From positions 2,688 to 66,687 of the forward strand of contig JADJUV010000025.1 of the NCBI GenBank assembly GCA_016716885.1: DNA of 64,000 nucleotides, given 5' to 3'. The number at the start of each line of letters is the position of its first letter. Position 1 is the first letter of the stretch. Shown here in pieces: positions 52,889 through 53,038 of this stretch. The notes beneath the pieces are model-generated. The model made no database searches. It saw only the letters and a program-made list of their open reading frames with translations, and was not told the origin of the DNA. This stretch comes from Candidatus Trichofilum aggregatum. Lineage in GTDB: Bacteria; Chloroflexota; Anaerolineae; Promineifilales; Promineifilaceae. The translations under genes and the position numbers were made by a program.

Positions 52889-53038
52889 GGGGGGGGGGGG
52901 GGGGGGGGGGGGGGGGGGGAAAAAAAAGGACGATTTCCCCCCCCCCCCCCCCCCGCGGGGGGGGGGGGGGGGGGGGGGGGGGGGGGGGGGGGGGGGGAAC
53001 CGGCCCGCCCCGCCGGCCCGCCCCCCCCCCCCCCCCCC
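52889..53038. repeat. Extreme homopolymer block G31-A8-GGACGATTT-C18-GC-G41-AACCGGCCCGCCCCGCCGGCCCG-C18
   Basis: Direct count: G 52889-52919, A 52920-52927, C 52937-52954, G 52957-52997, C 53021-53038. Lies between divergent starts at 52744 and 53163. Confidence 0.9.

What the first reader, a model, noticed from the sequence alone, without database searches (positions are those of the whole stretch)
52889..53038. G31-A8-C18-G41-C18 homopolymer block between two divergent secreted-peptidase genes
Counted directly, the runs are: 31 G (52889-52919), 8 A, GGACGATTT, 18 C (52937-52954), GC, 41 G (52957-52997), a 23-nt GC-rich spacer, and 18 C (53021-53038). Runs this long are extraordinary for a bacterial chromosome. 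The alternating G and C tracts can pair with each other (hairpin or cruciform) or form G-quadruplex and i-motif structures. The block occupies the 421-bp spacer between the start of an HExxH lipoprotein gene (52744, minus strand) and an M23 peptidase lipoprotein gene (53163, plus strand). Slippage there would modulate both promoters, making an extreme contingency locus. Strong caveats apply. Poly-G/poly-C is a known artefact of two-colour Illumina chemistry and of assembly joins. This sequence also shows many homopolymer indels, so the run lengths are not reliable.
Basis: partly seen in the sequence, partly recalled or inferred. Interest (0 to 1): 0.8.

Follow-up and report, generated by a model that had tools for sequence, protein, structure and literature searches.

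The report
Garbled mobile element, not real homopolymers
The long runs of G and C are in the deposited sequence, but they are almost certainly a consensus error that overwrote an ordinary 200-bp hairpin-rich mobile element (MITE), which a closely related genome carries intact at the same spot.

Summary

The biological reading does not hold. A sister genome, L062 (GCA_963851955.1), is about 97% identical on both flanks. It has the same two genes in the same order, and at this position it carries a normal 206-bp MITE-like element. That element has a 9-bp target-site duplication (TGGGACAGG), terminal inverted repeats and two G-rich/C-rich hairpins.

The window's block aligns to this element column for column. 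Each G run replaces a G-rich hairpin arm, each C run a C-rich arm, and A8 replaces GAACAACG. Internal anchors are 51 nt apart in both genomes. Of 70 substitutions in 150 columns, 63 are to G or C.

Two intact copies of the same MITE family lie elsewhere in the window. The window also carries 1-nt indels, two of three in short runs, that break the neighbouring HExxH gene. Another MAG, probably from the same long-read project, shows the same kind of garbling.

Both promoter-like sites lie outside the block. The flanks are correctly joined, so this is a local consensus or polishing error, not a misjoin. Interest is low.

The parts
52889..53038 (.). Homopolymer block (G31-A8-9 nt-C18-GC-G41-23 nt-C18). 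It is a corrupted consensus of the interior of a MITE copy, not believed to exist in the organism.
   Evidence: Counted. In ungapped register with L062 9718-9867, 80 of 150 columns are identical and 63 of 70 substitutions are to G or C. That register is the best of about 42,000 tried: 83/154 against a mean of 41.3, sd 7.0.
52860..53059 (+). MITE-like element, copy A, whose sequence is corrupted from about 52885 to 53059. The left terminal inverted repeat CAGCAATTCTCATTTTGAG is intact and the right one is unrecognisable.
   Evidence: Alignment to the intact orthologous copy in L062 (9689-9896) and to the two paralogous copies. The TIR search finds only the left end here. nhmmer recognises only the left 84 positions, E 0.007.
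52851..52859 (.). Left copy of the 9-bp target-site duplication TGGGACAGG.
   Evidence: The direct repeat at 52851-60 and 53060-69 was found. The same duplication flanks the element in L062.
53060..53068 (.). Right copy of the 9-bp target-site duplication TGGGACAGG.
52814..52842 (-). Sigma-70-like promoter candidate for the HExxH peptidase gene (TTGTCA-17-CAAAAT with an extended TG). It lies outside the element.
   Evidence: 2 sites found against 0.2 expected. The sequence is identical in L062.
53080..53108 (+). Sigma-70-like promoter candidate for the M23 peptidase gene (TTGACG-17-GACAAT). It lies 41 nt to the right of the block and outside the element.
   Evidence: The same TTGACG-N17-GACAAT sits upstream of the orthologues in L001, L002, L043 and L062.
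51604..52744 (-). HExxH (Peptidase_Mx-like) lipoprotein gene, split into three frames in this window by 1-nt indels at 51660, 51888 and 52620.
   Evidence: ORFs. Weak Pfam Peptidase_Mx hit. The gene is an intact 380-aa call in L062. Indel contexts are (A6 to A5, CCC to CC).
53163..54458 (+). M23 family metallopeptidase lipoprotein gene. The GenBank protein starts at 53055, an ATG that exists only in the corrupted stretch. The likely true start is 53114 or 53163.
   Evidence: Pfam PF01551. The window translation from 53055 equals MBK9051226.1. L062 has TTGCTG where the window has AAATGCG. The L001 orthologue starts at the ATG equivalent to 53114.
63139..63343 (+). Intact paralogous copy B of the same MITE family.
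   Evidence: nhmmer E 1e-61. Both TIRs found. Sequence.
2401..2635 (+). Intact paralogous copy C of the same MITE family, flanked by a perfect 9-bp duplication ATGAGGTGT.
   Evidence: nhmmer E 2e-61. Both TIRs found. Sequence.

Best explanation
The organism carries, between the divergent promoters of an HExxH peptidase gene and an M23 peptidase gene, an ordinary ~206-bp miniature inverted-repeat transposable element (MITE). It has a 9-bp target-site duplication, ~17-bp terminal inverted repeats and two long G-rich/C-rich hairpins.

In this deposited assembly the consensus over about 185 bp of that element (roughly 52885-53059) was corrupted. At nearly every column the base was replaced by the locally dominant base. 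G-rich arms became pure G, C-rich arms pure C, and GAACAACG became A8. Segment lengths were preserved.

Shown here:
- the tracts are in the sequence;
- the sister genome has a well-formed MITE in exactly the same register;
- paralogous intact copies exist in the window;
- the flanks are collinear with the sister genome;
- the window carries 1-nt indels that break a neighbouring gene.

Inferred:
- the window's true sequence resembles L062's;
- the corruption arose at the long-read basecalling, consensus or polishing stage. Nanopore reads are known to be unreliable across inverted repeats, and a column-wise polisher would preserve length;
- the source is the Danish activated-sludge MAG project (R9.4.1 flip-flop basecalls, CANU, Racon, medaka twice, then Racon with HiSeq X reads).

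Which software step did it cannot be told from the sequence alone.
For: 1. L062 (GCA_963851955.1) is 97.0% and 97.3% identical on the two flanks and has the same genes in the same order.
2. At the block's position L062 has a complex sequence with TSD TGGGACAGG, terminal inverted repeats and hairpins. Its DNA fold is -54.6 kcal/mol, z -6.5.
3. The alignment is column for column. The anchors GCGAATTTG and GACGATT are 51 nt apart in both genomes. G31 matches GTAGGGGCGGGGCAGGTGGGCCAGAATTGGG, A8 matches GAACAACG, and C18 matches CCCGCCTGCCCCACCCCT. Of 150 columns 80 are identical, and the 70 substitutions are 41 to G, 22 to C, 6 to A and 1 to T. Only 8 of 53 A/T bases survive. The anchor-defined register is the best of about 42,000 ungapped registers (z about 6).
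4. Mismatch density is 47% in the block, against 0-20 mismatches per 200 bp (at most 10%) in most of the surrounding bins.
5. Two intact paralogues of the element lie in the same window, one with a perfect 9-bp TSD. The TIR motif is found 5 times against 0.02 expected, and only the block copy lacks its right TIR.
6. Three 1-nt indels, two of them in short homopolymers, break the HExxH gene in the window. The gene is intact in L062.
7. L043, a CANU 'tig' MAG, shows the same length-preserving substitution toward C in the last copy of a tandem repeat. It was the only other G/C run of 10 or more in about 1 Mb of related loci.
8. The window's protein is MBK9051226.1. That lies close in accession series to MBK8901391.1, the M23 protein of L004, whose CANU-style contig and isolate names suggest the activated-sludge MAG set. 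That project's pipeline is described in PMC8012365.
9. Nanopore miscalling at inverted duplicates and at G-rich repeats is documented (PMC7229812; PMC9414165).
Against: No reads are available, so the true sequence of this strain was not observed. L062 is a different strain or species-level relative with about 3% divergence, not the same genome.

No publication describing exactly this 'majority-base' garbling was found. The step that produced it is therefore unidentified.

The assignment to the activated-sludge dataset rests on accession proximity and my recollection, not on a record lookup.

The other two MITE copies in the window were assembled correctly, so the trigger at this particular copy is unexplained. 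Its arms look more G-rich than theirs, but that was not measured.
Confidence: 0.94

Rival explanations
1. The tracts are real. In this strain the hairpin arms of the MITE were converted into pure homopolymers, forming a hypermutable contingency locus or G-quadruplex/i-motif element between two divergent peptidase promoters.
For: The tracts are in the deposited sequence. They lie in a divergent intergenic region between two secreted-peptidase genes. G and C tracts could pair or form G4 structures.
Against: It would need about 70 directed substitutions in 150 bp with segment lengths unchanged, in a lineage whose flanks differ by about 3% from a genome with a normal element. Slippage changes length, not base identity, and no known mutational process does this.

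Both promoter-like sites lie outside the block. No orthologous locus has such tracts. The right TIR and non-G/C segments are also scrambled, which fits general consensus failure.

From my own knowledge, G41 far exceeds the tracts of roughly 8-20 bases seen in bacterial phase-variable loci. An exact-match scan for the junction string in JGI metagenomes found nothing.
Confidence: 0.03
2. Poly-G reads from two-colour Illumina chemistry (NextSeq/NovaSeq dark cycles) were recruited to the G-rich hairpin arms during short-read polishing and overwrote them. Their reverse complements gave the C runs.
For: Length-preserving substitution toward G on G-rich arms and toward C on C-rich arms is what majority voting with poly-G reads in both orientations could give. 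The probable pipeline ended with short-read Racon polishing.
Against: The probable source project sequenced on HiSeq X, which by my knowledge is four-colour. The A8 run replacing GAACAACG and the scrambled AT-rich right end are not explained by poly-G reads. In L043 the garbling goes only to C.
Confidence: 0.05
3. Assembly misjoin: the block marks a chimeric junction between two unrelated contigs or read ends, so the two peptidase genes are not really neighbours.
Against: L062 has the same genes in the same order and orientation on both sides, with alignments running up to the edges of the block (window 50937-52900 and 53056-54348). The same target-site duplication brackets the element in both genomes.
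Confidence: 0.01

Closest known systems
Nanopore miscalling at inverted duplicates and G-rich repeats (Spealman et al. 2020, PMC7229812; Tan et al. 2022, PMC9414165)
   Same: The error is systematic and depends on sequence context. It sits in inverted-repeat, G-rich DNA and survives into the consensus. The affected stretch here is a hairpin-rich element with G-rich arms.
   Different: Those papers describe low-confidence or missed calls, and repeat-to-repeat miscalls in telomeres. Conversion of a complex sequence into long pure homopolymers with preserved length is not described there. I found no paper that describes it.
Two-colour Illumina poly-G artefact
   Same: It produces long spurious G runs, and C runs on the other strand, in sequence data.
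   Different: It acts at read ends on NextSeq/NovaSeq instruments. The probable source used HiSeq X. The block also contains an A8 run and follows the local majority base of the true sequence.
Homopolymeric phase-variation (contingency) loci, e.g. poly-G/poly-C tracts in Neisseria, Haemophilus, Campylobacter and Bordetella (own knowledge)
   Same: G or C homopolymers next to genes for surface or secreted proteins.
   Different: Real tracts are typically about 8-20 nt (own knowledge). They lie inside the -35/-10 spacer or the reading frame and vary in length between strains. Here the tracts are 18-41 nt, lie outside both promoter candidates and are absent from the sister genome.
Bacterial MITEs inserted in intergenic or promoter regions (e.g. 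Correia elements of Neisseria; own knowledge)
   Same: What is really at the site is about 206 bp long, non-coding and multi-copy. It has terminal inverted repeats, a target-site duplication and strong internal secondary structure, and it is inserted between divergent promoters.
   Different: This is a different family, so far seen only in this Promineifilaceae-like lineage. The TSD is 9 bp. No cognate transposase was identified and no effect on expression was tested.

Membership tests
Homopolymeric contingency (phase-variation) locus | The tract lies within a promoter spacer (-35/-10) or within the 5' coding region of the regulated gene. | tested here: not met
   The promoter-like sites are at 52842-52814 (minus) and 53080-53108 (plus). 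The block at 52889-53038 lies 46 nt and 41 nt away from them and outside both genes.
Homopolymeric contingency (phase-variation) locus | A tract is present, with length variation, in closely related strains or orthologous loci. | tested here: not met
   The sister genome L062 has no tract, only a complex MITE sequence. None of the other 60 related loci has a G/C run of 10 or more upstream of the orthologue, except the garbled L043.
Homopolymeric contingency (phase-variation) locus | Length heterogeneity among reads of one population. | not testable with these tools
   No reads are available.
MITE (miniature inverted-repeat transposable element) | Terminal inverted repeats. | tested here: met
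   CAGCAATTCTCAATTTGAG-like ends are found at both ends of copies B and C, and of the L062 copy. Only the left end is found in the block copy. There are 5 matches against 0.02 expected.
MITE (miniature inverted-repeat transposable element) | Target-site duplication flanking the element. | tested here: met
   TGGGACAGG flanks the block copy in both the window and L062. ATGAGGTGT flanks copy C. Copy B has no recognisable duplication.
MITE (miniature inverted-repeat transposable element) | Short, non-coding and present in several copies per genome. | tested here: met
   The copies are 205-235 bp. There are three in this 64-kb window and two in 21 kb of L062. No Rfam family matches.
MITE (miniature inverted-repeat transposable element) | A cognate autonomous element or transposase with matching ends. 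| not tested
   No further TIR matches were found in the window. The rest of the genome is not available.
Assembly misjoin or chimera | The flanks are not adjacent or collinear in an independent assembly of a close relative. | tested here: not met
   Both flanks are collinear with L062 in the same order and orientation, at 97% identity.
Two-colour Illumina poly-G artefact | Data generated on a two-channel instrument, with only G runs (or C on the reverse strand). | tested here: inconclusive
   The probable source used HiSeq X, but the source attribution is inferred. The A8 run and scrambled AT-rich end argue against it.
Long-read consensus or polishing error at structured repeats | Located in inverted-repeat or multi-copy DNA. 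The assembly shows other long-read error signatures. The same error type recurs in the same dataset. A close relative has normal sequence in the same register. | tested here: met
   Hairpin-rich MITE. 1-nt indels, two in short homopolymers, that break a gene. Analogous garbling in L043. L062 is normal and in register.

The most novel reading that the evidence does not exclude
The tracts are genuine. In this strain a MITE's hairpin arms were converted, base by base and without length change, into G31/C18/G41/C18 homopolymers. That would be the longest homopolymer contingency or G4/i-motif element known in a bacterial chromosome, sitting between two divergent secreted-peptidase promoters.
Probability: 0.03. 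Interest if true: 0.85.

Novelty: not a real feature. Interest (0 to 1): 0.08.

Why it matters
As biology it does not matter much. The real object is an ordinary MITE inserted between two promoters.

As data quality it is a useful warning.
- A public MAG contains a stretch of about 185 bp of fabricated homopolymer.
- That stretch created a false start codon, so the deposited M23 protein (MBK9051226.1) has a spurious N-terminus.
- It also opens a 524-aa ORF that runs through poly-G.
- The same error type occurs in another MAG that appears to come from the same project (L043).

Scans for G-quadruplexes, phase-variable tracts or 'extreme' repeats in long-read MAG collections would pick up such artefacts. 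Long homopolymers in R9-era nanopore assemblies should be checked against sister genomes or reads before they are interpreted.

Tried and rejected
- Exact-protein look-ups of window proteins, to find independent assemblies: the aminotransferase and the 467-aa M23 protein are not on record. The window's own contig could therefore not be fetched, and no Logan or Illumina contig of this species was found. The M23 homologue search gave only one 99% hit, which is L062.
- Metagenome scans: the left junction of the element and a junction string of the homopolymer block itself both gave 0 hits. This is uninformative about the true sequence, but it gives no support for the tracts existing elsewhere.
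- Rfam, on the window at gathering thresholds and on L062 at E up to 1: only SRP RNA and chance miRNA-like hairpin hits. The element is not a known structured RNA.
- Conserved tract in relatives: rejected. 61 orthologous loci (about 1 Mb) contain no comparable run except the garbled L043.
- Literature search for this exact polishing artefact: nothing specific was found.
- Cloning-style dG/dC tailing and assembly-join explanations were considered and dropped once the column-for-column match to L062 was seen.
- A batch fold of the long copies failed on the length limit and was not repeated.

Full report
**Observation.** The region reads G31 (52889-52919), A8, GGACGATTT, C18 (52937-52954), GC, G41 (52957-52997), a 23-nt GC-only spacer and C18 (53021-53038). 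Everywhere else in the 64-kb window the longest homopolymer is 8 bases, and run lengths fall off smoothly. The block is therefore in the sequence and is not a chance event. It lies between an HExxH lipoprotein gene that starts at 52744 on the minus strand and an M23 peptidase gene on the plus strand (Pfam PF01551). In this window the HExxH gene is split over three frames.

**Organism and source.** Relatives of the M23 protein are MAGs of Chloroflexota, class Anaerolineae, labelled Promineifilaceae or Ardenticatenaceae. The window's M23 ORF from ATG 53055 is identical to GenBank MBK9051226.1, a 'Chloroflexi bacterium' MAG protein on an 88,155-bp contig. The M23 protein of L004, whose CANU-style contig and isolate names suggest the activated-sludge project, is MBK8901391.1. 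The two accessions are only about 150,000 apart. I take this as suggestive, not proven, that the window comes from the same bulk submission. That project used PromethION R9.4.1 with flip-flop basecalling, CANU, Racon, two rounds of medaka, and a final Racon round with HiSeq X reads (PMC8012365).

**The decisive comparison.** One protein hit was 99% identical (P0001). Its contig is L062, from GCA_963851955.1, 366 kb long. It carries the same genes in the same order and aligns to the window at 97.0% on the left flank (window 50937-52900) and 97.3% on the right flank (53056-54348). Where the window has the homopolymer block, L062 has a complex 206-bp sequence. That sequence is bracketed by the direct repeat TGGGACAGG. 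It starts with CAGCAATTCTCATTTT and ends with CAAATTGAGATTTGCTG, which form an inverted pair. It contains two long G-rich/C-rich hairpins. Folded as single-stranded DNA it gives -54.6 kcal/mol, z = -6.5 against shuffles.

**How the block maps onto the L062 element.** The window's block aligns to this element column for column.
- The anchors GCGAATTTG and GACGATT are 51 nt apart in both genomes.
- G31 lies over GTAGGGGCGGGGCAGGTGGGCCAGAATTGGG.
- A8 lies over GAACAACG.
- The first C18 lies over ACGACCCACCTGCCTCGC.
- G41 lies over TGGTTGCGGTCAAGGAGGGGTGAGGCAGGCGGGAAGGACAT.
- The second C18 lies over CCCGCCTGCCCCACCCCT.

In this ungapped register 80 of 150 columns are identical. The 70 differences are 41 changes to G, 22 to C, 6 to A and 1 to T. 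Only 8 of the 53 A/T bases in L062 survive. The anchor-defined register is the best of about 42,000 ungapped placements on both strands of L062, at 83/154 against a mean of 41.3 and sd of 7.0. The stretch to the right of the block (53039-53059), which should be the right terminal repeat, is also scrambled and is 7 nt short. By contrast, most of the surrounding 200-bp bins differ from L062 by 0-20 mismatches with few or no indels; a few bins further out are more divergent.

**What is really there.** The L062 element belongs to a small repeat family. Two intact paralogues lie in the window itself, at 63139-63343 and at 2401-2635. The second is flanked by a perfect 9-bp duplication, ATGAGGTGT. 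A profile built from the intact copies finds them at E about 1e-61. It recognises only the left 84 positions of the block copy, at E 0.007. The terminal-repeat motif occurs five times in the window against 0.02 expected. Both ends of copies B and C are found, but only the left end of the block copy. No Rfam family matches. These are the hallmarks of a MITE: short, non-coding, multi-copy, with terminal inverted repeats and a 9-bp target-site duplication. The insertion is shared by the window and L062, with the same site and the same duplication. It therefore predates their split, and the window's true copy should be about 97% like L062's.

**Promoters.** The two sigma-70-like sites in the spacer lie outside the element. 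One is TTGTCA-17-CAAAAT at 52842-52814 on the minus strand. The other is TTGACG-17-GACAAT at 53080-53108 on the plus strand. The plus-strand site recurs upstream of the M23 orthologues in L001, L002, L043 and L062. The MITE thus inserted into the short gap between two back-to-back promoters. Slippage within the block would not alter either promoter's -35/-10 spacing.

**Why artefact rather than biology.** Turning the L062-like sequence into the window's would need about 70 substitutions in 150 bp. They would all have to go toward the locally dominant base, with segment lengths unchanged, in a lineage that otherwise differs by about 3%. Slippage changes length, not identity, and I know of no mutational process that does this. 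A consensus or polishing failure working on fixed pile-up columns would do exactly this.

The window shows other long-read error signatures. Three 1-nt indels break the HExxH gene, which is an intact 380-aa ORF in L062. Two of them shorten short homopolymers, A6 to A5 and CCC to CC.

The only other G/C run of 10 or more in about 1 Mb of related loci is in L043, another CANU 'tig' MAG. There the last copy of a 123-bp tandem repeat is garbled in the same way. CCCCGTCAACGGGGCTTTCTCCTCTTTCAGCCGGTTTCAACCGGCG became CCCCCCCCCCCCCGCGCCCCCCCCTTCCCCCCGGTTTCCCCCGGCG, column for column.

Nanopore reads are documented to give low-confidence and wrong calls across inverted duplicates (PMC7229812). They also make systematic repeat-calling errors in G-rich repeats (PMC9414165). 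Which step produced the homopolymers (basecalling, CANU correction, medaka or Racon) cannot be decided from the sequence. That part is inference.

**Rivals.**
- Misjoin is excluded, because the flanks are collinear with L062.
- Two-colour poly-G reads are unlikely. The probable source used HiSeq X, which by my knowledge is four-colour. The A8 run and the scrambled AT-rich right end do not fit either. The source attribution is inferred, so I leave this about 5%.
- Real tracts remain possible only at a few percent. No reads could be examined. Two exact-match scans of JGI metagenomes, one for the left junction and one for a junction inside the block, returned nothing. The species is not represented elsewhere in the protein collection.

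**Consequences of the artefact.** The ATG at 53055, used as the start of the deposited M23 protein, exists only in the corrupted stretch. L062 reads TTGCTG there. The annotated N-terminus (MRGTGVRLFDAGRW...) is therefore spurious. A 524-aa ORF also runs through the poly-G.

**Verdict.** The contingency-locus, G4 or cruciform interpretation is not supported. I classify it as not a real feature, of low interest. The underlying MITE is a new member of a known kind and is of minor interest.

Noticed in passing
window 2401-2635 and 63139-63343 (also L062 9689-9896 and 20212-20419): A lineage-specific MITE family of about 205-235 bp. It has ~17-bp terminal inverted repeats (CAGCAATTCTCAATTTG), a 9-bp target-site duplication and a multi-stem GC-rich core (GTAGGGGCGGG...CCCGCCCCTAC). 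There are three copies in 64 kb. No Rfam match and no transposase partner were seen.
   Followed up: partly
window 51660, 51888, 52620: Three 1-nt indels relative to L062 split the HExxH peptidase gene into three frames. Two are deletions in short homopolymers (A6 to A5, CCC to CC). The gene is intact (380 aa) in L062, so the window carries residual long-read indel errors and apparent pseudogenes should be distrusted.
   Followed up: yes
window 53055-53162: The GenBank start codon of the M23 peptidase (MBK9051226.1, 467 aa) lies in the corrupted stretch. L062 has no ATG there. The real start is probably 53114, matching L001 and lying 6 nt after the -10-like GACAAT (possibly leaderless), or 53163.
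   Followed up: partly
L043 9000-9560: Upstream of the M23 orthologue in Ca. Leptovillus affinis there is a tandem array of a ~123-bp hairpin-rich unit. Its last copy is garbled into C8/C14/C8 runs by column-wise substitution toward C. This is the same artefact type as in the window.
   Followed up: yes
L002 9300-9700: Upstream of the M23 orthologue in this short-read MAG there are ~126-bp tandem repeats with a perfect hairpin (GTGTCATTTTTCGCGGGC...GCCCGCGAAAAATGACAC), followed by a 100-N gap. The intergenic region upstream of this gene repeatedly holds repeats that assemblers struggle with.
   Followed up: no
window 54348-54683 vs L062 11186-11383: The 3' end of the M23 gene and the sequence after it do not align between the two genomes. 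The L062 protein has a different C-terminus (…ISRGGTPPVFLQPSSVSPITPFSHFKQYIITEPYSMMG…), which suggests an insertion or frameshift in one of the assemblies.
   Followed up: no
window 46000-46400, 57200-58000, ~61898: Patches with many indels or a 25-nt deletion relative to L062, unlike the clean coding regions around them. They could be real intergenic divergence or further low-quality consensus.
   Followed up: no
window 9000-9130: An intergenic stretch made of several short GC-rich hairpins (CCCCAACCCCGCCCCCTAGGGCGGGG, GCCGGTTTTCGAGCGGCGGCTCGAAAACCAGC, CCCTTCCCCGGGAAGGGGG). It resembles REP-like repeats and motifs seen upstream of M23 in L002.
   Followed up: no
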